DNA from: Candidatus Nanohaloarchaea archaeon
GTDB taxonomy: Archaea; Nanohalarchaeota; Nanosalinia; Nanosalinales; Nanosalinaceae
Length of the DNA: 61,152 nucleotides
Reading direction: 5' to 3'
Assembly (NCBI GenBank): GCA_041640075.1
Contig: JBEQAY010000002.1
Coordinates: forward strand, 1 to 61,152
In this document: piece by piece, positions 38,401-52,536 of the stretch
How positions within the stretch are numbered: the stretch's first letter is position 1
How the letters are laid out: each line of letters opens with the position of its first letter
The notes under the pieces: model-generated
What the model saw: the letters and a program-made list of their open reading frames with translations, nothing else
Database searches by the model: none
Told to the model about the DNA's origin: nothing
Made by a program: the position numbers and the translations under genes

Positions 38401-38509
38401 GATTATCACGCCCAGAAAAATCTGTAAAGCAAATACTCTACCAAACAAAATAGGTTTTTATCTTTAAATAGATGAACTGCGTCGGCGATACTCGCAGACA
38501 CACGCAGAC

Positions 38510-38526
38510 CGGAAAGGGTTTAAATA
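38510..38526 (+). promoter_or_regulatory. BRE/TATA promoter for micro-ORF 1 and ligase A
   Basis: CGGAAAGGG-TTTAAATA, TATA 30 nt before ATG 38549. Confidence 0.65.
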
Positions 38527-38548
38527 CCTTTACACCATTACAATCGTC

Positions 38549-38614
38549 ATGGTTCAGTCAACAACCAAGGGTGGACGTGTTCTACTCTCGCGAAGCCGTT
38601 TCTATAACCACTGA
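38549..38614 (+). CDS. Putative leader micro-ORF 1 (MVQSTTKGGRVLLSRSRFYNH)
   Basis: ATG at leaderless distance from the TATA box. Confidence 0.4.
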   Translation: MVQSTTKGGRVLLSRSRFYNH

Positions 38615-38665
38615 ATTCTACAGTTCTAAAAATCCTAACTATAATTCAAAGTTCCGAGGTGGCCG

Positions 38666-40630
38666 ATGATGCCAACCTCAGCAAAAGACGATTCCGGACG
38701 GTTTGACGTCGAATGGGATGAGATAAGAGAATCACAGGCAGAAGATGTAGTGGAGACATTCCCAGAACATGACGACCAGAAAGCAACGGATGAAGAAGAT
38801 TTACAGGAAAGGGACATGATGGGTGCTGAGGCAGAGCACATCGCAGAAAGGGAAAACGGTGGAGTACCTGAACCGGTAACGCGAGACTTCACAAGAAGAC
38901 AAATGGAGGTAATTTCTGAACACCAAACCGCATCAGAAGTAAACCGGATAAATACTGCAGAAAACGATGAGATAGCAAATGTCAAACTTGAATTTGAGAA
39001 TGGTCAAACCGGTATAAGCGATGTAGACGTTGGAGCAGTTGAGAAAGAGGATGTCACAGGACTTGTAAACAGCATTGATGAGGTTGTTGAAAATCTTGAC
39101 TTAGTCGAAGAAGTTACAGCTGAAACCAATCCTGATGAAGACGTGGTTTTCAGGAGACAGGGACACACAACTTCCATGATAATCCGTGGCTCTGGCGAAG
39201 AATATGATTGGGAAAAAGCTGAGGCAGGCATCTACCCAGGGTCCAACATGTTTTCAGGCGCTCCAAGATATCACGCATTTGACGATACCTTTGACGGTGT
39301 AGGACAGGTAGCAGGAACCGGTTCAATACAGGTCACTATGAGACCTAAGATATACGAGGAACACGAAGGTGATCCGGATAAATGGATAAAGGACTTCTCA
39401 GGGGGCGGAGAAAGAATCGGAATGCACGCCTTAAGCCCTCTTATTTACGGGCCTTTCCAGTCATCACCTGTAATAGACGAAGTCTTACCTGAAGGAGTTT
39501 CAGAGGAAGAAGCCAGTGAGGAAGACTTCAAGAAAGTAATAGAAACCCTAAACGGGCGTGACAAGGCTTACGGACAGGGATTCCAGAACGAGCACGATAC
39601 TAAAGGAAAAGGGAAAGATGAGGGAGAGTACGTAACCGAGAACTCCAAGGCTGCTTACTCTCCTGAACTTGCTGAAATAAGGAGCATGGAAGAACAGGTC
39701 GACTTCCCTGCAGATTCTGAGTGGACTTTCTCTGCACCTACCGAAGCAGGCAAGATGAAGGTTGTTGAAGAGGGGGAGACTTATGATCCAGAAGCAGAAT
39801 ATGATACCCTTGCTGATGTTACTTTCCTAGAAGATGACGATAAAGAGTCGATTCGCGTAGGGCATGATAACTGGGAACTTCCTGATGGAAGAAACGTCAT
39901 CAAGACCAATGAGTTCCCGGAGCATGAGAGATTTGAAGGAACAGTGTATGTAGAAGATGAGGAAGGAAATCTTGAGAAAAAGAGAGTCGTCGTGGATTAC
40001 CAGGATGAGGAAATGTTCCCAGACATGGACGAGGAAGAGTTCCAGGAAACTGCTAAAGACCATTATGGAGCAGATGCAACTGCTGTATGGCAATCCTGGC
40101 GAATGCGTCCAAATATGCCCGCCATCGAATACAGGGACATGTGTAACAATCCTTTCAGGGATGCTGGCATAGCAACCCAGGTAGGAGCGTTCAGAAGATG
40201 GAAAGAGATCCAGGAATTCGCAGAGGATGAACTTGGACTCCGTGAAACCGATGCTCAGAGACTTCGCCTCGGAGTCAACGGGATGACAGCAGACCACGAG
40301 AAAGATCCTGAGTACCTCGATAACATCGGACTTGACTACACAATAAACGAAGAGGAGGATATCACACTCCAGGATGCATGGCTCGGAACAGGAATGGAAG
40401 AAGGTCTCCTTGATATAGTATCCGAAGGCGTCGCGGAAATGACAGATGACACCAAGGACGCTTATAGTGTCGGAGAGTACAGAGAAACTATGAAAGAGCT
40501 CCTGGAGAATGGGTTAACACCGGGAGAGATGATGGCCAGAGAGTACGGAGTAGAGATGGAAGGAGACATCCTCTATGAACCTGAAGATGCCGTGGTTGGC
40601 AGAAAAGACGAGGAATATGTAGAGGCCTAA
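38666..40630 (+). CDS. Divergent glutamate-cysteine ligase/GCS2-fold carboxylate-amine ligase A
   Basis: Motifs in family order: GAEAEH, LEFENGQ, TGSIQVT, FQSSP, GRDKAY, WRMRP..IEYRDMCNNP; SD GAGGTG. Confidence 0.7.
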   Translation: MMPTSAKDDSGRFDVEWDEIRESQAEDVVETFPEHDDQKATDEEDLQERDMMGAEAEHIAERENGGVPEPVTRDFTRRQMEVISEHQTASEVNRINTAENDEIANVKLEFENGQTGISDVDVGAVEKEDVTGLVNSIDEVVENLDLVEEVTAETNPDEDVVFRRQGHTTSMIIRGSGEEYDWEKAEAGIYPGSNMFSGAPRYHAFDDTFDGVGQVAGTGSIQVTMRPKIYEEHEGDPDKWIKDFSGGGERIGMHALSPLIYGPFQSSPVIDEVLPEGVSEEEASEEDFKKVIETLNGRDKAYGQGFQNEHDTKGKGKDEGEYVTENSKAAYSPELAEIRSMEEQVDFPADSEWTFSAPTEAGKMKVVEEGETYDPEAEYDTLADVTFLEDDDKESIRVGHDNWELPDGRNVIKTNEFPEHERFEGTVYVEDEEGNLEKKRVVVDYQDEEMFPDMDEEEFQETAKDHYGADATAVWQSWRMRPNMPAIEYRDMCNNPFRDAGIATQVGAFRRWKEIQEFAEDELGLRETDAQRLRLGVNGMTADHEKDPEYLDNIGLDYTINEEEDITLQDAWLGTGMEEGLLDIVSEGVAEMTDDTKDAYSVGEYRETMKELLENGLTPGEMMAREYGVEMEGDILYEPEDAVVGRKDEEYVEA

Positions 40631-40685
40631 CCCCCTCGAAACTTCAGGAACATTTAAAACTGTAAGGTGGTAAATCTTGAACATC

Positions 40686-40775
40686 ATGTTTGAGGCTGGC
40701 AGGCTAAATGATCTAGTATCTGAAGTTAGCGGTGTCAGCCATACTGCTATCATTATTATCTCAATAATTGCTTAA
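40686..40775 (+). CDS. Putative leader micro-ORF 2 (MFEAGRLNDLVSEVSGVSHTAIIIISIIA)
   Basis: TTTAAAA at 40653; Ile-rich end; GC-rich stem follows at 40777-40820. Confidence 0.45.
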   Translation: MFEAGRLNDLVSEVSGVSHTAIIIISIIA

Positions 40776-40882
40776 AGAGGCCTCCTTCCCACAGCGAAAT
40801 GTAGAAGCGGGCGGGGCCTCAAAGAGAAAAATAATTGCCCTGTTTCTGCATTTCAACCAAAAAGAACGGTGTACAATCCCAG

Positions 40883-42907
40883 ATGGAAAATAAGAACAGA
40901 ACAGAATCCGAAAACCAGGACTTGAAGACAAGGACAGCTTCCAGAGTCTCCGAAGAATTCAGGCAAAATCCCCAGAAAAAGTCAGGCGGAGAAGTGGAGG
41001 ACGCCATCCAGCACGAAGACACACTTGAAGCTGCTGGCAGAGAAGACGCACAGGAGAACTTCGAAAACATACTTGAAGACACTGAAGTTGAGACAGAGGA
41101 AAAAACTGTTGACAGCGGGAACGGAGAGGAGCTGAGCGGAGCAACTCTGAAGGATTCTCCGCTTGAAGAAGATCCTGAAGAAGCATTCAATCCTGATATC
41201 GATACCGATTTCAGTCCTCATCAGGGGGAGGTGGCCTCTGCCGTAGTTGATAACCCTGCAGATCTGGTCTACGGCGTTGACAGGCCTAGAAGGATAAGAG
41301 ACAGGAATCTGCCTGAAGGGTTCTCCTCTTTCGAGTACGCACTGAAGCCGGGTATGATGTTCCCGGACTGGGATGGTTCTCACAACCGTGACGAGATGGT
41401 GGACGGAGAACCTGATATGGGTGAAGAAAACAGGATGTGGGATCCAAGATACTTCACCTTTGAACTACTGGATGGCGAGGAATTCCACGCAATGGGAACG
41501 CCAACAGCCACTCAGCTGAATTCAGGAACCCCTGTAGGAGAAGATATGGATGCGAACGAGTTTTTCTACAAGTTCTTCAACGGAGGGGAAAAAGCCAGCG
41601 TACCGGAGATAGCGATGGGGCTCAGCACTCTTTTCGATGCTGACCCTCTTTTCTCAGGTAATCGAGAAGATGGATACGAGATAGAGGTAGAGTCCGGAAG
41701 AGACATGATATACGATCTATTTGTCTCGGAGTCTGATGCTGTGTCCCGTAAGGAAGCTCATGAGAGATGGGGAGACGAATTGGTTGAAGCTCTCCCTACA
41801 AACGAGAACTACGGACGGATAGAGGACTTCACTAATCTTTCAGAGGATCAGGCAGTTGAGGATTACGTGGATATAGTTATGGACCGTCCTGCAAAACTTG
41901 CTCCCGCACTTGAACCAGAGCAGATAAAGTTCGAGAACCCTGAGGAGGTTCTTGACGAAGAAGACCTAGACGAGGGTGATGACTCTCTTGAATACCTTCA
42001 GGCCAAGGACGATGACCGAGAGTGGGAGAAGCAGTGGGCAGTCTTCGACCAGTCAAGACAGGAGATGAACCTGGAGAAACTTGAAGAAGAGCGAAAGTAC
42101 AAGGGCAAGATACTCCTTGACGGCGAACTGGTGGATGTTACAGTCGACCATTCTTCGATGGAGGACGAGGAATTTGATGAACTTATGGACACCTACTTCG
42201 ACTTCCAGAACACCATGGTTCGTCCGGATGTCGCACCGAAAACCAACGGTGTAGTCGAGTCCAGAAACTTCAGCCACAGCGACAGGACGTATCACGCCTT
42301 GCTTACCCAGAAAGCGATGCTGGACAACTTCCAGGAACTTCAGGACAGATTCTTTGAAGCCGGCATGAACTCGGGGAACGCCGAGGAGATGAGGGAAAGA
42401 TTTGTACATGACGGTGTTGACGCAGAACTTCCGGATTACAGTCCTGCAGAGGTTGAAGGAAAGGATTTCTACGCTCCTGAAGAAGATAAGGAACCAGGAA
42501 CTATGCGCGAGTTCTACAGGTTCGAAGTCCTACCTGTACTCGAGGAAGGTCTGCGTGAGGCTTTCACCGAAGAAACGCCTTATGTAGTGCAGAAGATGGT
42601 GGAAGACTTTGAATATGATGACTTTGAAAGAGACGTGCTATCGGAGTTCGACGATATGGATGAGTTCCTGGAATACCAGGATCTTGCAGAGGATGTCGAG
42701 TATAGTTCTTCAGAAGATTACAGTGAAGAAGCTGAGGCATTCGCTAACTGGTTCACTGAAACTGCTTATCGCCAGGAGATGGAGCGCTGGCTTGACCCAG
42801 AAACTCCTACAGTAAACGAGGAATTAAGAGACTATGCAAACAGCCAGTCGCCAGAGGAAGCAATTAAAAGAAAGAAAAGAGCATCACACCATAGCTACGA
42901 GGCGTAA
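40883..42907 (+). CDS. Divergent GCS2-fold carboxylate-amine ligase B
   Basis: VETEEKTVD, HQGEVAS, TATQLN, FDADP, SGRDMIY, RPDVAPK..VVESRNF. Confidence 0.6.
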   Translation: MENKNRTESENQDLKTRTASRVSEEFRQNPQKKSGGEVEDAIQHEDTLEAAGREDAQENFENILEDTEVETEEKTVDSGNGEELSGATLKDSPLEEDPEEAFNPDIDTDFSPHQGEVASAVVDNPADLVYGVDRPRRIRDRNLPEGFSSFEYALKPGMMFPDWDGSHNRDEMVDGEPDMGEENRMWDPRYFTFELLDGEEFHAMGTPTATQLNSGTPVGEDMDANEFFYKFFNGGEKASVPEIAMGLSTLFDADPLFSGNREDGYEIEVESGRDMIYDLFVSESDAVSRKEAHERWGDELVEALPTNENYGRIEDFTNLSEDQAVEDYVDIVMDRPAKLAPALEPEQIKFENPEEVLDEEDLDEGDDSLEYLQAKDDDREWEKQWAVFDQSRQEMNLEKLEEERKYKGKILLDGELVDVTVDHSSMEDEEFDELMDTYFDFQNTMVRPDVAPKTNGVVESRNFSHSDRTYHALLTQKAMLDNFQELQDRFFEAGMNSGNAEEMRERFVHDGVDAELPDYSPAEVEGKDFYAPEEDKEPGTMREFYRFEVLPVLEEGLREAFTEETPYVVQKMVEDFEYDDFERDVLSEFDDMDEFLEYQDLAEDVEYSSSEDYSEEAEAFANWFTETAYRQEMERWLDPETPTVNEELRDYANSQSPEEAIKRKKRASHHSYEA

Positions 42908-42910
42908 AAA

Positions 42911-44023
42911 ATGAAGACAGAAAAGCTTGCGGAACAGCTCATATCATACAAAACAGTCTCACCGGTCGAAGAACCTGAAATATTCGAGTTCGTGAAGGGA
43001 GTGCTTGAAGAGGAAGGTATAGAGGCCGAGATAAGAGAGATCGATGGCGTCTACAACCTCGTAGCTGAAATCGGTACGGGAGACGTCTCAGTATGCCTCA
43101 ACGGCCATCTTGACGTCGTGGAGCCGGAAGGAGAGTGGAGCGTGACAGAGCCTTTTGAACCAAAGGTAGAGGACGGAAAGCTCTACGGAAGAGGCGCCAC
43201 AGACATGAAATCAGAGGCAGCAGCCCAGATAAAGGCGTTCCTAGATCTCCACAGAGACAGCAACTTTGAAGGAAGAGCAGTCCTTATGCTGGTCGGAGAT
43301 GAGGAGATAGGAAGCTTCAACGGATCCAAGCCACTGGTCAAGGAGTACTACGGTAAAGAAGAAGGATTTGACTATGTCATAGTCGGCGAACCAACAGATC
43401 TGGATATACAGGTCGGTACACGTGGAGTGCTCTGGCTGAACGTCTTACTCGAAGGTGAAGGCGTACACGCAAGTAGAGCTCACATGGCAAAGATAAACGT
43501 GATGGATGAGCTGCCGGAAGCGCTTGATAGGCTCAACAGCCTTGAATTATCCTACAAAAATGATGGAGTGCTCCCAAACCCGTCAAAGGAAGTAACAAAG
43601 GTCAAAAGTACGGAGACATACAACAGCGTCCCCGGACAGGTCGAGATAGGTGTAGACATCCGTTACCTGCCCTCACAGAGCGTCGACCAGATAGTCGAAG
43701 AAGTAGAGGCGGCTCTGGACGGACTGGACTGCGGAGTGAAGGTTGAAGTCGAGCACGACCACGGAGGTGCCTTCGAACTTGAAGATGAAAAATTCAGGGA
43801 AGTGGCGAGAGACGAACTCGAGAACGTGAGAGGAAAGGAACCGGAGTACATAACAGAGGGTGGAGCCAGTGACGGAAGATTCTTCTCAGAGCAAGGAACG
43901 CCGTTCATAGAACTCGGACTGAACCAGGAGTCCGTACACGCCGAGAACGAGTACTGCGACCTAGAAAAACTCAGGAAACTCAGGGAAGCATACTACATGA
44001 TTGCCCGGGACCTCAACGAATAG
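42911..44023 (+). CDS. M20 metallopeptidase (DapE/ArgE-like)
   Basis: GHLDVV, YGRGATDMK, DEE, GEPT, HAS, GGASDGRFF, HAENE. Confidence 0.9.
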   Translation: MKTEKLAEQLISYKTVSPVEEPEIFEFVKGVLEEEGIEAEIREIDGVYNLVAEIGTGDVSVCLNGHLDVVEPEGEWSVTEPFEPKVEDGKLYGRGATDMKSEAAAQIKAFLDLHRDSNFEGRAVLMLVGDEEIGSFNGSKPLVKEYYGKEEGFDYVIVGEPTDLDIQVGTRGVLWLNVLLEGEGVHASRAHMAKINVMDELPEALDRLNSLELSYKNDGVLPNPSKEVTKVKSTETYNSVPGQVEIGVDIRYLPSQSVDQIVEEVEAALDGLDCGVKVEVEHDHGGAFELEDEKFREVARDELENVRGKEPEYITEGGASDGRFFSEQGTPFIELGLNQESVHAENEYCDLEKLRKLREAYYMIARDLNE

Positions 44024-44088
44024 TACTTCTCTAGAAACACATCGTCTGGCACAGAACCTTTTAAACATTTGTTACTTATAGGTTAGGT

Positions 44089-44166
44089 ATGAACGCTGTC
44101 GCAAATTATACAGTACAGCTTTCTTCTTTCAGCGACAGCTTCAGCTTTATGTTCATGTTTATATGA
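44089..44166 (+). CDS. Putative leader micro-ORF 3 (MNAVANYTVQLSSFSDSFSFMFMFI)
   Basis: TTTTAAA at 44059; Phe-rich end; 9-bp stem follows at 44170-44200. Confidence 0.45.
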   Translation: MNAVANYTVQLSSFSDSFSFMFMFI

Positions 44167-44278
44167 GATTCCTCATTCCACAGATCTAGATGAATGAGGA
44201 CTTCTTGATCGACTTCAAAACAAGAACACAATCTATACAACAAAAAACAACACAGTACAACGCAAGAGGATAACAAAA

Positions 44279-45628
44279 ATGAGAGAAAACACGGCAAGAA
44301 CTTCCGAAGAAACCTGGGGAGACATAGACACTGCTCTGGAGTATCCCCACTCCGTCATAACCAGTGTCGACACCAAACTCCTTTACAACGAAGACAAGGA
44401 CCGGTTCGAGGCAGCAATGGTTGGAGACTTCAATGCTTTCCCTGAAGGACTCTCCCTTCAGAGCAACTGGGATGAAAACGGAGACCTTGTGCGTATGACT
44501 GCAGAGGCACTGGTAGACCATGTTCCCGGAGAGAATCCGACTGTAGCGGTTAATAAGCCAGGACATATCTACAACAGCGACAACTCTGCGATCATAGACG
44601 GTAAGGACGATCTCATCGAAGAAATCGAAAGGCTCGTAGATGAAACCTACGAAGTCATGGACGGTCAGGGACTTGCATCAGCAGAAGATGGCTCAGAGAT
44701 GCAGGTCAACGGACAGCCTGTTGACGGCTACGTAAACATCAGTGACCGGGCAAAAGGACTTGAATCGGTATCCGATGCCCATCTGGAGCATGGTGCACAG
44801 GCTCCGACAGCAGTCTGGAACACAGAGGTACCTCAGACCGGTAAGATCGGTCTCCTGGAGACAGCTGCAGATGTGACTGCTGACATAGAACACGTGCACA
44901 CTCCAGAATTCTTCACAGTTGAGTCTCCGGAGGAGATAGTGGACTACTTCAGCGAAGGAAACTCTGTCGTGCTGAAGGCCGACCAGTACGGCACACACGG
45001 GGACGACATTGTCTCACTGGACTGGGAGGAGTACCAGGAAGCATCCGAGATGGGCTGGATTGGCCTGGAGCATGCAAAAGGCCTTGTCGAGTCTCCCCTT
45101 GATTATGTCGAGACCAAGATCGAGAACGAGGAGAGGCGTGTCCAAGCAAAAGGTAACCGCCCGGATAACTTCAGGCTGTATGAGGAGGGTGAGTTCAAGG
45201 GTCCAGGACCTGGTCTTGTGGAGGAAGCTGTCGCAGGAACATACGAGATAGATGGAGATACATTTACCGTGGTTGACAGGGACGATCAGCCTATGGACTT
45301 CGTTCCCGTCACGATCTACGACCCAGAGACGAGAGATGCTGGAGTAGAGTCATACCTAGTCAGGGCTTCAGCAACAGAAGACCTGAACGCGAACAGAGGG
45401 TTCGCAAACTTCGATCCCAAGCATATCAGGCACGCCTGGGACCAGGGATTCGACGAAGTCTACGAGGACGGCAGCGGAGCACTACAGGACACCCTTGAAG
45501 AGATCGCAGGTAGACCTGTTGATCTCGAGGAAGAAGTCATTCCTGTACTTGATGAGGCAGGTCAGGCCGCTTACTCAACCAGGAACGCCTCCTCGTACAA
45601 AGGAGTCCAGGATAGAGGTGCTCCATAA
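44279..45628 (+). CDS. Circularly permuted ATP-grasp ligase-like protein
   Basis: N-terminal SVD...GDFNAFP.G (normally the C-terminal D..ExN motif); central TP, VVLKADQYGTHG, LVEEAV, R...NANRG. Confidence 0.6.
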   Translation: MRENTARTSEETWGDIDTALEYPHSVITSVDTKLLYNEDKDRFEAAMVGDFNAFPEGLSLQSNWDENGDLVRMTAEALVDHVPGENPTVAVNKPGHIYNSDNSAIIDGKDDLIEEIERLVDETYEVMDGQGLASAEDGSEMQVNGQPVDGYVNISDRAKGLESVSDAHLEHGAQAPTAVWNTEVPQTGKIGLLETAADVTADIEHVHTPEFFTVESPEEIVDYFSEGNSVVLKADQYGTHGDDIVSLDWEEYQEASEMGWIGLEHAKGLVESPLDYVETKIENEERRVQAKGNRPDNFRLYEEGEFKGPGPGLVEEAVAGTYEIDGDTFTVVDRDDQPMDFVPVTIYDPETRDAGVESYLVRASATEDLNANRGFANFDPKHIRHAWDQGFDEVYEDGSGALQDTLEEIAGRPVDLEEEVIPVLDEAGQAAYSTRNASSYKGVQDRGAP

Positions 45629-45669
45629 AAACCCTCCATCTCTTATTTCTTCAGATAAAATACGTCTGT

Positions 45670-46617
45670 ATGAATCTTTACGAAGGAGCCGAGACCATAA
45701 TCAACCAGTGTCTTAAAGTCAAAGTGGATGAAAAAGTCGTAGTTCTGAACGATTCAAACGATGAAGAACTTGTAGAATCTCTTCTGGACGTTCTAGCAGA
45801 CAGAGGTATCGAACATGAACTAGTGACATATGAGGAACCAGAAAAACAGGGTCAGGAACCTCCAACACTGGTGGCGAAGAAGATGAGGGAATCAGACGTC
45901 TTCATCGCACCAACAATGAAGTCACTGAGCTGGACCGATGCCAGGATAGAGGCAACAGAAAACGGGGCTAGAGGAGCAACACTTCCAAGTATAAACAGAG
46001 AAATATGGCTTGGAGCACTCCAAGCAGACTACGAGCGGGTGGCAGAAATAACTGACAGTGCAAAAAAACTGCTCGAGAATGTAGAGGAGGTCAGGATAGA
46101 GAGTCCAAGCGGAACAGACCTGAAAGTAAAACTGGGAGACAGACTTGTACCTGGTAAGGGTATAGTAACAGATTCAGGCTCTTTCTCGAACCTGCCAGCA
46201 GGAGAAGTGTACACAGCACCACTGGACGCCAAAGGCGTAATGGTGATCGATAACTTCGTTACCAAAGGTGAAGGAACAAAAGTTAGGATAGAAGACGGCA
46301 AAGTAACCGAGATAATCAATGGCGAAAACAAGGAGAAAATTCAGGAAGCCATAGAGGATATAGAGAACGGTGAAAACATCGCAGAGTTTGGCTTCGGGAC
46401 AAATCCTCAGGCAGAGATTATTGGAAATGTTTTGCAGGATGAAAAAGTTCTGGGAACAGTCCACATCGCCATGGGAAACTCTATGCCGATCGCAGAAAAA
46501 GAAGAAAACGGTTTAGAGTCAGATATCCACTGGGACAACGTTATAGAAGACCCAACAGTCTGGTTCGATGATAAGAAAGTTCTAGACAGAGGTAAACCTA
46601 TCTTTCTAGGAGAGTAG
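45670..46617 (+). CDS. M29 (AmpS-type) aminopeptidase
   Basis: SGTDL, NLPAGEVYTAP, IAEFGFGTNP, DEKVLGTVHIAMG, SDIHWD. Confidence 0.9.
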   Translation: MNLYEGAETIINQCLKVKVDEKVVVLNDSNDEELVESLLDVLADRGIEHELVTYEEPEKQGQEPPTLVAKKMRESDVFIAPTMKSLSWTDARIEATENGARGATLPSINREIWLGALQADYERVAEITDSAKKLLENVEEVRIESPSGTDLKVKLGDRLVPGKGIVTDSGSFSNLPAGEVYTAPLDAKGVMVIDNFVTKGEGTKVRIEDGKVTEIINGENKEKIQEAIEDIENGENIAEFGFGTNPQAEIIGNVLQDEKVLGTVHIAMGNSMPIAEKEENGLESDIHWDNVIEDPTVWFDDKKVLDRGKPIFLGE

Positions 46618-46628
46618 AGAGTAAAACT

Positions 46629-47912
46629 CTACTTCTCCGATCTTTCAAATTTTCCGCTTCTTACCTGGGCTTCCTCCATAACCTCTTCTCTATCCAGACC
46701 TAGAACCTTGCCCCTGTCCACGACTTCATCACCGTTCACAAAGACTTTCTCGGGATGTCCCGTGTAAGAGAAAACGAGGTTTGAGACCAAACCTGTTTTA
46801 CCGTGGAACGGTTTCATCTCCGGCCTCTCCATATCTATAATCAGGAGATCCGCTCTCTTCCCTTCTTCGATAGAACCGATCTCATCCTCCAGTCCAAGCG
46901 CTCTGGCTCCGTTGATCGTAGCCATATCCATAACTTGCTGTTCGTTGATGTCCTCGGGGCTTTCAAGTTTGTGTACAAGTGCCGAGGTTTTCATCTCCTC
47001 GAAGAGATTGAAGTTATTGTTTGAAGCTGGTCCATCAGTTCCAAGCGCTACGTTGACGCCTTTTTCTAACAGTTCAGGGATCTCTGCGATGCCGCTGCCG
47101 AGTTTGAGGTTTGCAGCCGGATTGTGTGCGACGTTTGCTTCCCTATCCTCGAAAAGTTTCTTGTCTTCTTCTGAGAGCCAGGCAGCATGCGCGGCAACTA
47201 CACTTGAATCCAGAAGGCCGTGTTCGTCAAGGTACTGTGTCGGTGTCAAGCCGTGTTCTGCCTCGTGGTCTCTGTTCTCCTTCTCGGTCTCGGAGACATG
47301 TATGTGGTATGGTACATCCTTTTCCTCAGCGTATTCTTTCATCTCCTTCAGAAGTTCCTCACTGCAGGAGTAGACAGCGTGTGGGGCGATACCAGGAGTC
47401 ACGAGCTCATGGGCAGAATATTTTTCAACGGCTTTCTTAGCCTCTTCTATTCTTGCTTCTCCGCCATCATCCCAGTCGAACAGTCCTCTGGAAAGTACGG
47501 CTCTTATACCGGTTTCCTCTACAGCTTCCACGATCTGATCGATCCCCTCGTACATGTCGTTGAAACATGTGGTCCCTGTCTCCAGCATCTCTACACATGC
47601 CAGCCTGGCACCCTGCTTCAGATCCTCTTCATCCATAGCTTCCTCTGCAGGGAAGATATCCTCCTGCAGCCAGTCCTCAAGCTCCTTGTTGTCGGAGATA
47701 CCTCTCAGAAGAGACATTGAGGCATGAGTATGCGCATTAACCATGCCAGGCATGACCAGTTTACCTGAACAGTCCACAACCTCTTCACCTTCTTTAGATT
47801 CCAGTTCCCCAATTTCAGCGATCTCTGTACCAACTATCCGTAGATCAGTTTTTTCCAGAATTTCTCTTTCCGGGTTCTGTGTGACGAGGAAACGAATATT
47901 TTGAAGTAGCAT
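46629..47912 (-). CDS. mtaD: Amidohydrolase, MTA/SAH deaminase-like
   Basis: NAHTH, GTTCFNDMY, APHAVY, HIHVSET, HNPAANLKL, GTDGPASNN. Confidence 0.85.
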   Translation of the reverse strand: MLLQNIRFLVTQNPEREILEKTDLRIVGTEIAEIGELESKEGEEVVDCSGKLVMPGMVNAHTHASMSLLRGISDNKELEDWLQEDIFPAEEAMDEEDLKQGARLACVEMLETGTTCFNDMYEGIDQIVEAVEETGIRAVLSRGLFDWDDGGEARIEEAKKAVEKYSAHELVTPGIAPHAVYSCSEELLKEMKEYAEEKDVPYHIHVSETEKENRDHEAEHGLTPTQYLDEHGLLDSSVVAAHAAWLSEEDKKLFEDREANVAHNPAANLKLGSGIAEIPELLEKGVNVALGTDGPASNNNFNLFEEMKTSALVHKLESPEDINEQQVMDMATINGARALGLEDEIGSIEEGKRADLLIIDMERPEMKPFHGKTGLVSNLVFSYTGHPEKVFVNGDEVVDRGKVLGLDREEVMEEAQVRSGKFERSEK

Positions 47913-51057: not shown

Positions 51058-52536
51058 TTAGTAGTTTTTAGCGAAGTACGCCCACCTCTCCGCTTTTTCT
51101 CCGCAGATTGCGCATTCTCCGGAGATTTGTTCCTCTGAGTCTTGGATTGTCGCCGGCTTTGAATCCTCACTAAACGGTAGGACGACGATTTCTGCTGCTA
51201 CTTCGTCTTTGATCTCTGCTTCGCATTCTTCGTCTCCGCACCAGCGGGTTTTGACGTATCCGCGGGATTTGCCGATTGTGGCGAGGATCTCGTTTTTGGA
51301 GTCTGCTTCGCGGATGTTTTCCTGCTGGTATTCCTCTAGCTGTGCGTACAGGGTGTCCTGGATGTCTTCGAGGATTTCCTCTGCGGAGTCTGTGAACTCT
51401 TCGCGGTCGATACCCATTTCTTTTTGCCCAGTGTCTCTTCTGACTGTGGTGACGGCGTCGTCTTCCATCTCGTTCGGTCCGACTTCTACTCTGAGAGGTA
51501 CTCCTTTGAGTTCGTGTTCGTTGAACTTGTATCCTGGAGTCCTGTGAGGTCTGTGGTCGAACTCCACTCTTATTCCCTGTTCCTCAAGCTCTTCACTGAT
51601 TTCTTCCGCGTAGTCCATTACTTCTTCCTGGTTGTCTTCCTGGAAGATCGGTACGACTACGATCTGGTTCGGTGCGATGCTTGGAGGCAGTCTCAGCCCG
51701 TCGTCGTCTCCATGCGCCATGATCAGTGCGCCGATAACTCTGGTGGAGAGGCCCCAGCTCGTGGTCCAGGCAGTTTTCTCATCGCTATCTCTGTCCTCGT
51801 ATGTTATATCAAACGCTTCAGCGAAGTGCTGGCCTAGCTGGTGCGAGGTCCCGGACTGGATCGATTTGCCGTCAGGCATCAGTGTTTCGATTGTTGTAGT
51901 GTATTTTGCGCCCGGGAACTTGTCGTGCTCCGGCTTGTATCCCAGGATGCTTGGGATCGCGAGGTGATCTTCGATTACTTCCTGGTACTGTTCAAGTCTC
52001 AGCATTGTTTCTTCGTCAGCAGCTTCCTCGGATGCGTGAGCGGTGTGCCCTTCCTGCCAGAGGAATTCTCTGGTACGGAGGAACGGCCTTGTGTCGGTCG
52101 CCTCCCATCGAACCACGTTTGCCCACTGATTGAGCCTCATCGGTAGGTCTCGATGGCTGCGGATCTCCTCGCTCATGTAAGGTGCGATAACTGATTCGGA
52201 GGTTGGTCTTACAGCTATTCTCTCCTCCAGCTCCTTGTCTCCACCGTGAGTCACCCATGCGACTTCAGGGTCGAATCCTTCTACAATATCTTCCTCTCTG
52301 GACAACTGTTTCTCAGTGATGAAAAGTGGGAAGTACGCGTTGTCTACTCCAGTCTTCTCTATTTTGTCGTTGAAGTTCTCCTTGATGCTTTCCCAGAGCT
52401 TCATTCCGTAGGGCTTGATTATCATGCAGCCCTTGACTTCGGCGTACTTCGCCAGGTCAGCTTTCTTGACTACCTGTGTGTACCATTCTGAAGGGTTCTG
52501 GTCTTTATCTACTGTTATACCTAGTTCTTGGCTCAT
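51058..52536 (-). CDS. proS: Prolyl-tRNA synthetase (archaeal/eukaryal type)
   Basis: VRPTSE, QWANVVRWE, FLRTREFLWQEGH, GTSHQLG, C-terminal FAKNY. Confidence 0.97.
   Translation of the reverse strand: MSQELGITVDKDQNPSEWYTQVVKKADLAKYAEVKGCMIIKPYGMKLWESIKENFNDKIEKTGVDNAYFPLFITEKQLSREEDIVEGFDPEVAWVTHGGDKELEERIAVRPTSESVIAPYMSEEIRSHRDLPMRLNQWANVVRWEATDTRPFLRTREFLWQEGHTAHASEEAADEETMLRLEQYQEVIEDHLAIPSILGYKPEHDKFPGAKYTTTIETLMPDGKSIQSGTSHQLGQHFAEAFDITYEDRDSDEKTAWTTSWGLSTRVIGALIMAHGDDDGLRLPPSIAPNQIVVVPIFQEDNQEEVMDYAEEISEELEEQGIRVEFDHRPHRTPGYKFNEHELKGVPLRVEVGPNEMEDDAVTTVRRDTGQKEMGIDREEFTDSAEEILEDIQDTLYAQLEEYQQENIREADSKNEILATIGKSRGYVKTRWCGDEECEAEIKDEVAAEIVVLPFSEDSKPATIQDSEEQISGECAICGEKAERWAYFAKNY

What the first reader, a model, noticed from the sequence alone, without database searches (positions are those of the whole stretch)
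38510..46617. Candidate new amide-ligase system: two GCS2-fold ligases, a circularly permuted ATP-grasp ligase and two peptidases, divergent from the proteasome beta gene
Seen in sequence: five co-oriented genes. The ORFs at 38666 and 40883 look like low-complexity hypotheticals, but both carry the glutamate-cysteine ligase/GCS2 motif series in the right order (ExE, Q-containing strand, TxxxQ, SP/DP, GR, RP...ExR). The ORF at 44279 has ATP-grasp motifs. An M20 peptidase starts 3 nt after ligase B, and an M29 aminopeptidase closes the cluster. Established: clusters that combine glutamine-synthetase-fold ligases, ATP-grasp ligases and peptidases make small peptides or tag proteins, and the PafA/Dop pair of the actinobacterial Pup-proteasome system is a GCS2-fold paralog pair encoded near proteasome genes. 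Inference: this is one of (a) a non-ribosomal oligopeptide or glutathione-like thiol pathway with turnover enzymes, (b) a reversible protein or peptide tagging system feeding the neighbouring proteasome, or (c) a RiPP-like system acting on the micro-ORF peptides. I know of no such system described in DPANN archaea.
Basis: partly seen in the sequence, partly recalled or inferred. Interest (0 to 1): 0.88.

Follow-up and report, generated by a model that had tools for sequence, protein, structure and literature searches.

The report
Starvation-switched amino-acid salvage ligases
In a tiny salt-loving symbiotic archaeon, three predicted amide-ligase genes and two peptidase genes form a cluster in which each ligase gene sits behind its own conserved mini-gene that likely switches it on when leucine, isoleucine or phenylalanine/methionine runs short, so the cluster probably helps the cell obtain amino acids rather than tag proteins for the neighbouring proteasome.

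Summary
The five genes are real and the fold calls hold. Ligase A models as a plant-type glutamate-cysteine ligase (Z 26.4; Dop/PafA about 16), B is its paralogue, and C is a circularly permuted ATP-grasp. The proteasome link looks positional: the beta gene is near in 9 of 23 related loci, the M20 in 22 of 23. The micro-ORFs are conserved, but they read as regulators, not substrates. A's leader is a prfB-like +1 frameshift cassette with a Leu sensor codon. In 61 of 61 such cassettes before a tRNA synthetase the codon names that enzyme's amino acid, and it also matches leuA and ilvA. B's leader is an Ile run followed by two covarying, mutually exclusive helices. C's leader is Phe/Met-rich. No dihydroxy-acid dehydratase was found in 70 genomes of the phylum. 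Best reading: a shortage-induced supply module that handles each hydrophobic amino acid as a gamma-glutamyl-type conjugate, freed by the DapE-like M20. Substrates and reaction direction are untested. The scan had already noted the frameshift switch on other DNA (also in this genome) and similar ligase attenuators in CPR bacteria. My searches found no paper on either in archaea.

The parts
38519..38526 (+). TATA-like box, 22 nt before the leader start; suggests a leaderless transcript
   Evidence: sequence; an A/T run recurs at this distance in relatives
38549..38614 (+). Leader uORF of A, 21 codons
   Evidence: Lys-Gly-Gly core kept in frame in 4 of 4 A loci and, with one Thr-Gly-Gly variant, in 4 of 4 D-family loci
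38567..38584 (+). prfB-like frameshift cassette: SD-like stretch 38567-38575, codon 38576-78, slippery codon 38579-81, Leu sensor codon 38582-84
   Evidence: 16S rRNA 3' end
38583..38669 (+). +1 frame after the sensor codon, open to a stop that overlaps the start codon of A
   Evidence: (tail of ORF 38472-38669)
38666..40630 (+). Ligase A, plant-GCL/YbdK-like carboxylate-amine ligase fold; E55, E57, D121, E128, R201-Y202, Q222, R298, E488, R490
40653..40659 (+). TATA-like box before the leader of B
40686..40775 (+). Leader uORF of B, 29 codons, ending in an Ile run
   Evidence: intact in 8 of 10 B leaders examined (the other two are broken by a frameshift or N gap) and in 6 of 6 single-copy homologues of two other families
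40777..40820 (+). Helix P1, starting 2 nt after the leader stop
40796..40854 (+). Alternative helix P2 (arms about 40796-40814 and 40835-40854), exclusive with P1
   Evidence: 16 pairs, 99% of cells paired, 3 compensatory pairs in 7 sequences
40883..42907 (+). Ligase B, paralogue of A; E37, E39, D109, E116, R189-Y190, Q211, R273, E459, R461
42911..44023 (+). M20 hydrolase, DapE-like, coupled to B
   Evidence: orthologue in 22 of 23 related loci
44059..44065 (+). TATA-like box before the leader of C
44089..44166 (+). Leader uORF of C, 25 codons, Phe/Met-rich end
   Evidence: a Met- and mostly Phe-rich leader in 8 of 9 C loci
44170..44199 (+). Hairpin directly after the C leader stop; switch logic not resolved
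44279..45628 (+). Ligase C, circularly permuted ATP-grasp nearest the 3K1T / PF08886 type
45670..46617 (+). M29 aminopeptidase; variable member (6 of 23 related loci)

Best explanation
The cluster is likely an amino-acid supply module that ribosome-read leaders switch on in shortage, in which each predicted ligase probably joins a glutamyl-type acyl group to one class of hydrophobic amino acid and the M20 enzyme probably frees the L-amino acid for tRNA charging. Shown: folds, catalytic residues, conserved leaders, linkage to M20. Inferred, strong: when Leu-tRNA is scarce the ribosome slips +1 at codon 38582, passes the leader stop, ends on A's start codon and reinitiates. Inferred, moderate: a ribosome held at the last Ile codons melts P1, P2 forms, and B with the coupled M20 is translated. 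Inferred, weak: C responds to Phe/Met shortage. Inferred, weakest: the chemistry (A Leu, B Ile or branched-chain, C Phe/Met as gamma-glutamyl conjugates) serves to capture, store or convert host-derived amino acid, with the ligase standing where the succinyltransferase stands in the GNAT-racemase-M20 pathway.
For: The sensor codon equals the synthetase's amino acid in 61 of 61 synthetase cases among 71 downstream ORFs scanned; Ile precedes ilvA and Leu precedes leuA. The +1 frame ends within -12..+6 nt of the downstream start in 58 of 86 cassettes, against 4 for -1 and 0 for frame 0; shuffles of A's leader keep +1 open in 428 of 2000. In L054, L046 and before ilvA in L223 the +1 frame reads into an Ile/Leu run, so that run also works in shortage. 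Ile is 85 of the last 180 leader codons; AUA is 2 of 85 against 37% in this genome. ilvD is found in 0 of 70 genomes and 14 of 14 controls. The Arg-Tyr aligned to plant GCL Arg220 and the later Arg are kept (PMC6463388 passage). In G067 a family member sits between ilvA and Phe/Tyr biosynthesis genes, ahead of an AstE-M20 fusion. A GNAT-M20-OSBS/NSAR-TrpRS operon sits under a Trp cassette in two relatives.
Against: No substrate was tested. Ligating an amino acid consumes it, and a ligase plus hydrolase in one compartment cannot raise free amino acid at steady state unless a store or a conversion step exists. No Asp/Glu or DapF racemase was found in 5 of 5 cassette genomes. A strong enolase-superfamily racemase hit occurs in 11 of 70 genomes and not in this one. 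The B switch energy beat all 12 shuffles in only 7 of 12 loci and ran the wrong way in 1. Unconstrained ribosome masks gave no uniform trend. C-type leaders showed easier opening in only 5 of 13. The D subfamily lacks both arginines. Related genomes are not independent samples.
Confidence: 0.5

Rival explanations
1. Same shortage control, opposite chemistry: the ligase-fold enzymes act as Dop-like amidases, or run in reverse with ADP and phosphate, releasing Leu, Ile or Phe/Met from gamma-glutamyl or other blocked conjugates taken from the host, alongside the peptidases.
For: Induction in shortage is most simply served by an enzyme that releases the amino acid. Every neighbour is a hydrolase (M20, M29, AstE, M28). 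Dop shows that this fold can hydrolyse, and 20 substitutions turn it into a ligase (PMC7947786 passages).
Against: The fold is far from Dop (Z 16.0 vs 26.4). An ATP-grasp and GNATs share the same leader types and slots, and these folds usually form amides (established knowledge). No source of such conjugates was identified.
Confidence: 0.25
2. Shortage-induced tagging of proteins or peptides that feeds the neighbouring proteasome, as in the Pup system.
For: The beta subunit gene lies beside the cassette in 9 of 23 related loci. Two paralogues of the PafA/Dop superfamily are present. Recycling protein in starvation is plausible (recalled).
Against: No Pup_ligase match in 5 of 5 genomes. No acidic small ORF with a Pup- or LysW-like end among 5701. 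Single-ligase loci in other families lie elsewhere. A cultured relative has the beta gene with the site apparently empty (PMC10266531 supplement rows). One paralogue per amino acid does not fit a tag ligase.
Confidence: 0.08
3. Glutathione-like thiol or osmolyte synthesis (gamma-Glu-Cys, then a third residue) with turnover peptidases.
For: The nearest solved structures of A and C are both titled gamma-glutamylcysteine ligases.
Against: The leaders name Leu, Ile and Phe/Met. The number and type of ligases vary freely between loci. Typical GCS2 genes exist elsewhere in the phylum.
Confidence: 0.06
4. The module removes excess hydrophobic amino acids and is on when they are plentiful.
For: P1 is melted by a ribosome at the stop codon, and this opens the ribosome-binding region in 13 of 15 loci.
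Against: A's cassette is the type that precedes synthetases, leuA and ilvA. The Ile run is reached through a shortage frameshift in three loci, one before ilvA. A stall two codons before the stop already flips the fold in some loci.
Confidence: 0.07
5. RiPP-like system in which the micro-peptides are substrates.
For: The micro-ORFs are conserved and followed by hairpins.
Against: Leader type follows position and amino acid, not enzyme family; codon choice is constrained; the same leaders precede synthetases.
Confidence: 0.03

Closest known systems
Plant / alphaproteobacterial glutamate-cysteine ligase (PDB 2GWC) and YbdK (1TT4, 1R8G; Pfam GCS2 PF04107)
   Same: Fold over 417 residues, metal and ATP residues, the Arg220-Tyr motif
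   Different: 16% structural identity, about 200 extra residues, no PF04107 match, several paralogues with amino-acid-specific leaders
ATP-grasp-type putative gamma-glutamylcysteine synthetase (PDB 3K1T; PF08886 as an Atlas lead) and glutathionylspermidine synthetases
   Same: Circularly permuted ATP-grasp fold
   Different: 16% identity, no Pfam match, Asp in place of the usual Glu of the E-x-N motif (usual residue recalled), Phe/Met leader
[quoted passage not shown]
   Same: An N-acylating enzyme paired with a desuccinylase-like M20; a full version occurs under the same leader system in relatives
   Different: ATP-dependent ligase folds instead of a CoA transferase; no racemase found in this genome
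Bacterial prfB (RF2) +1 frameshift (PMC5009743, passages read)
   Same: Internal SD-like stretch just 5' of a slippery NUU codon, then a slowly decoded codon
   Different: Archaeal; the sensor is a sense codon; in most copies the shifted frame ends at the next start instead of fusing to it
Polycysteine leaderless short-ORF attenuators of mycobacteria (bioRxiv 10.1101/834739, abstract read); classical ilv/phe leader peptides (recalled)
   Same: A leaderless uORF with an amino-acid run and RNA helices that gate the ribosome-binding site
   Different: Archaeal, Ile-specific, can be fed by an upstream frameshift; no terminator-like site follows P2
PafA/Dop Pup-proteasome system (PF03136)
   Same: Superfamily; paralogue pair; proteasome gene nearby in some genomes
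   Different: Lower fold match, no Pup, linkage not conserved

Membership tests
GS/GCL carboxylate-amine ligase superfamily (A, B) | Beta-sheet cradle fold | tested here: met
   A model Z 26.4 to 2GWC, Foldseek E 1.6e-10; B by profile to A
GS/GCL carboxylate-amine ligase superfamily (A, B) | GhExE motif, later Glu, Gln/His, Arg and ExR residues | tested here: met
   motif named in PMC7947786
Glutamate-cysteine ligase / GCS2 (PF04107) | Match to the family profile | tested here: not met
   no match for A, B, for 9 locus homologues or for 25 further relatives
Glutamate-cysteine ligase / GCS2 (PF04107) | Forms gamma-Glu-Cys | not testable with these tools
   needs an assay; the leaders point to other acceptors
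PafA/Dop Pup system | Pup_ligase profile match | tested here: not met
   0 of 5 genomes, control 1 of 14
PafA/Dop Pup system | Small acidic tag protein with a Pup-like C-terminus | tested here: not met
   1 non-acidic hit among 5701 small ORFs of an 89% complete genome
PafA/Dop Pup system | Conserved linkage to proteasome genes | tested here: not met
   9 of 23 loci; absent from six 11-19 kb loci
Circularly permuted ATP-grasp ligases (C) | Permuted ATP-grasp fold | tested here: met
PF08886 GshA (ATP-grasp type) | Profile match | tested here: not met
   no Pfam hit; Atlas score 0.89 is a lead only
GNAT-NSAR-M20 D-to-L pathway | N-acylamino acid racemase in the genome | tested here: inconclusive
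   only a weak (E 1.6e-10) enolase-superfamily hit in this 89% complete genome; no other racemase tested was found
GNAT-NSAR-M20 D-to-L pathway | M20 desuccinylase-type hydrolase linked to the acylating enzyme | tested here: met
   best matches are DapE but below the equivalog cut-offs; linkage
prfB-type +1 frameshift cassette (leader of A) | SD-like stretch, slippery NUU codon, sensor codon, open +1 frame | tested here: met
prfB-type +1 frameshift cassette (leader of A) | Frameshifting shown in cells | not testable with these tools
   needs a reporter or ribosome profiling
T-box riboswitch | Stem I with a specifier loop upstream of the T-box; Rfam match | tested here: not met
   no Rfam match at E <= 1; the motif lies 3-33 nt from the leader start
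Leader-peptide attenuator (leader of B) | Amino-acid run plus mutually exclusive conserved helices | tested here: met
Leader-peptide attenuator (leader of B) | Intrinsic terminator as output | tested here: not met
   none after P2; output inferred at translation initiation

The most novel reading that the evidence does not exclude
A new route of amino-acid acquisition in symbiotic archaea: a set of GCL-fold and ATP-grasp enzymes, one per hydrophobic amino acid, that together with a DapE-like hydrolase turn an unusable form (for example the D-isomer or a host conjugate) into the L-amino acid without a separate racemase. It is wired into a phylum-wide network of ribosome-read sensors, with two-tier logic where a frameshift feeds an RNA switch.
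Probability: 0.25. Interest if true: 0.93.

Novelty: new variant of a known kind. Interest (0 to 1): 0.83.

Why it matters
How DPANN symbionts that lack amino-acid biosynthesis obtain and ration amino acids is an open question. The leaders name the likely substrate of each orphan enzyme, which turns three hypothetical proteins into direct assays. Amino-acid-specific ribosome-mediated control (frameshift and RNA switch) was not found described for archaea in my searches. If the CPR notes of this scan hold, two unrelated symbiont lineages use the same enzyme folds under the same logic.

Tried and rejected
Pfam, NCBIfam and first PDB sequence searches gave nothing for A, B or C; only the 34-sequence profile reached plant GCL. 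The ESM Atlas had no usable hit for B. No RNA holder was listed for the region, so expression and start sites are untested. A complex prediction for B with the M20 was not available. Rfam gave no match; T-box rejected. The 'GshAB' of PMC10266531 (SVXNc_0869-70) is listed in its supplement as glutathione synthase/alpha-L-glutamate ligase between eIF2-gamma and RpoE, so it is a different locus. The amidohydrolase at 46629-47912 is not counted in the cassette: it appears to stay when the cassette is absent. A frameshift relay was tested for the B and C leaders and is not consistent across loci. I first read B's switch as on in plenty and dropped that. A D-to-L route with a separate racemase is not supported in five cassette genomes. 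The family tree is only the quick tree; I draw no order of events from it. Literature searches without a description of this system. The library lacks most subscription papers, and bioRxiv supplements were not seen.
Full report
Observation. The five ORFs are at the stated places. Named homologues are from Candidatus Nanosalina, Nanohalobium and Nanohaloarchaea, and record titles of related loci name Asbonarchaeum, Nanohalalkaliarchaeum and Nanoanaerosalina, so the window is nanohaloarchaeal. A, B and C have no family match; the two peptidases are M20 (DapE-like, below the equivalog cut-offs) and M29.

Folds. The AlphaFold model of A (25 sequences, pLDDT 84.9) matches plant glutamate-cysteine ligase 2GWC (Z 26.4, rmsd 2.9, 417 residues) and YbdK (Z 25.2). 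Dop scores 16.0 and PafA 15.8. B is a paralogue (profile probability 99.2); B itself was not modelled. A profile of 19 family members found 40 clusters among 1.84 billion proteins; none of the 25 I scanned matched Pfam GCS2. With 34 members the profile reaches plant GCL by sequence (E 7e-7), and six catalytic positions are invariant. The Arg-Tyr motif aligns to chain residue 155 of 2GWC, which I count as Arg220 using an offset of 65 (inferred). A passage of PMC6463388 places Arg220 at the cysteine-pocket end, binding a carboxylate. The model of C (12 sequences, pLDDT 84.9) matches 3K1T (Z 17.2, 328 residues), then Gsp synthetases (12.8), with the alignment pattern of a circular permutation.

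Distribution and linkage. B, A and C profiles hit 15, 11 and 6 of 70 genomes of the phylum. The wide profile hits 21 of 70, one of them only weakly. Loci carry one to four ligase genes of several subfamilies. C's slot can hold a Pfam-GCS2 gene with AstE instead. In 23 related loci the M20 orthologue is present in 22 (the other contig ends early), the proteasome beta gene in 9 and M29 in 6. Six loci of 11-19 kb keep ligase and M20 without the beta gene. In the supplement table of PMC10266531 (rows seen) the beta gene follows helicase and amidohydrolase directly, which I read as an empty site. The proteasome adjacency is therefore likely an insertion site of one family.

The micro-ORFs are leaders. 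Each ligase gene is preceded by a short ORF that starts 22-27 nt after a TATA-like box. This fits leaderless transcripts, which are 70% of mRNAs in Haloferax (PMC7261190 passages). A scan of this genome found 35 such candidates among 371 upstream gaps; C's and B's leaders ranked at the top for amino-acid runs.

Leader of A. It holds a Lys-Gly-Gly core. The same core precedes the Thr, Ser, Gly and Val tRNA synthetase genes of this genome (named by likeness to the relatives scanned). A start-plus-core pattern gave 113 matches in 54 of 70 genomes against 4 for the reversed control. The pattern fixed two bases after the core. I examined 73 of the 113: 30 loci returned by the tool and 40 regions that I picked from genomes with several hits. 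Two had no downstream ORF. Of 71 downstream ORFs, 61 are tRNA synthetases, and in all 61 the third codon after Gly-Gly is that enzyme's amino acid. One is ilvA with Ile, one leuA with Leu, one is a gene's own start, and 7 are unnamed. The core can pair with the 16S rRNA 3' end, and the codon before the sensor is NUU in 78 of 86 cassettes. This is the layout of the bacterial RF2 frameshift site (PMC5009743 passages). The +1 frame after the sensor ends within -12 to +6 nt of the downstream start in 58 of 86 cassettes, and past +6 in 16 more. The figures for -1 and frame 0 are 4 and 0. For A the sensor is Leu (38582-84) in 4 of 4 loci, and the +1 frame stops on A's start codon. Because the cassette serves synthetases and biosynthetic genes, it is read as on in shortage. 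I reached this; the look-up then showed that the scan had noted the same switch before.

Leader of B. It ends in an Ile run, as do the leaders of the single-copy homologues in two other families. In 15 loci, 85 of the last 180 codons are Ile, with AUA used twice against 37% in this genome. Helix P1 starts 1-6 nt after the stop in 15 of 15. Masking its 5' arm lowers the cost of opening the ribosome-binding region in 13 of 15. The alternative helix P2 is 99% paired with 3 compensatory pairs in 7 sequences; slid controls pair at 39-56%. P1 was out of register in 2 of those rows. The two states lie within 1.5 kcal/mol in 5 of 8 loci of this family. The effect beat all 12 shuffles in 7 of 12 loci. 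The sign is not fixed by energies alone. In L054 and L046, and before ilvA in L223, the +1 frame of an Ile or Leu cassette reads into such a run, and in the first two it stops just before P1. This makes on-in-shortage the coherent reading. A covariance model found the element in 11 of 70 genomes, mostly the training loci. Two new weak hits were Ile/Leu leaders, one before a D-family ligase and one before an unknown gene followed by DapF-like, epimerase and M29 genes. The nearest described mechanism is the polycysteine leaderless uORF of mycobacteria (abstract read).

Leader of C. It is Met- and mostly Phe-rich in 8 of 9 C loci. Similar Phe-rich leaders precede GCS2 and GNAT genes in the same slot. 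A hairpin follows the stop in 9 of 13, but no consistent switch or frameshift was found. This is the weakest of the three.

What the enzymes do. No ilvD was found in 70 genomes (controls 14 of 14), so de novo branched-chain synthesis is unlikely. Genes under these leaders elsewhere supply amino acids: leuA with leuC in G042, and ilvA and a family ligase among Phe/Tyr genes in G067. In G044 and G067 a GNAT-M20-OSBS/NSAR-TrpRS operon lies under a Trp cassette. The last matches the D-to-L pathway described in bioRxiv 10.1101/2022.03.03.481873 (passage read). I therefore commit to acylation by the ligases and release by the M20, with the leader naming the amino acid. Against this, no racemase was found in five cassette genomes, and a ligase-hydrolase cycle alone gives a store, not a higher steady level. 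A Dop-like releasing activity remains the main rival. That DapE's succinyl-binding Arg corresponds to the invariant R171 is recalled, not tested.

Comparison and novelty. The enzymes are new subfamilies of known superfamilies, not members of PF04107, PF03136 or PF08886. The general pairing of such ligases with peptidases (Iyer and colleagues 2009) is recalled; I did not read that paper. My searches listed no paper on this cassette or on amino-acid-specific leader control in archaea. PMC8116511 (passages) does not contain the word attenuation. Earlier AI notes report the frameshift switch in nanohaloarchaea and leader-controlled GCL-like ligases with M20 in CPR bacteria; I did not check the CPR loci. 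What this window adds is the tie between the three orphan ligases and named amino acids, and the Ile RNA switch. Verdict: real, new variant of known kinds, interest 0.83. Control of A is well supported, control of B moderately, and the chemistry is about even.

Noticed in passing
G000 contig C7:25932-29854 (L097, L106): Two Pfam-GCS2 ligase genes around an AstE gene; the second has a frameshift cassette with a Trp sensor codon, the first a Ser/Tyr-rich leader.
   Followed up: partly
L220 (G044:C2) and L221 (G067:C10): GNAT, M20, OSBS/NSAR and TrpRS operon under Trp cassettes; in L221 a second cassette's +1 frame runs directly into the GNAT frame.
   Followed up: partly
L223:4123-6057 (G067:C36): AstE-M20 fusion protein of 644 aa after a D-family ligase, inside an amino-acid biosynthesis cluster.
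   Followed up: partly
L218:5943-7427 (G030:C7): Unknown 494-aa gene without a Pfam match under an Ile/Leu-run leader, followed by DapF-like, dipeptide-epimerase-like and M29 genes.
   Followed up: partly
L219:1580-2800 (G043:C14): Unknown 406-aa gene without a Pfam match under a Leu cassette, upstream of SerRS.
   Followed up: no
L141, L145: Cys cassettes whose uORFs end in Cys/Gly/Asp-rich runs, before a NUDIX-like gene.
   Followed up: no
L081-L090, L093, L095, L099, L105: A separate GCS2 family of about 340 aa beside two genes that look RimK-like, near RpoE, without a clear leader; probably the locus called GshAB in PMC10266531.
   Followed up: partly
L222 (G042:C61): leuA and leuC with further biosynthetic genes in a phylum where no ilvD was found.
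   Followed up: no
L038:904-2472: Reverse transcriptase gene (Pfam RVT_1) next to the cassette in G044.
   Followed up: no
L065: The record title names a marine bacterium, but the locus encodes this nanohaloarchaeal family; the label may be wrong.
   Followed up: no
window 44190-44273: A second short ORF in C's leader ends 5 nt before C's start; it is not kept in the closest relative.
   Followed up: partly
window 52684 (- strand), before the ProRS-like gene ending at 52536: A short upstream ORF containing a Pro codon lies 148 nt before the gene.
   Followed up: no
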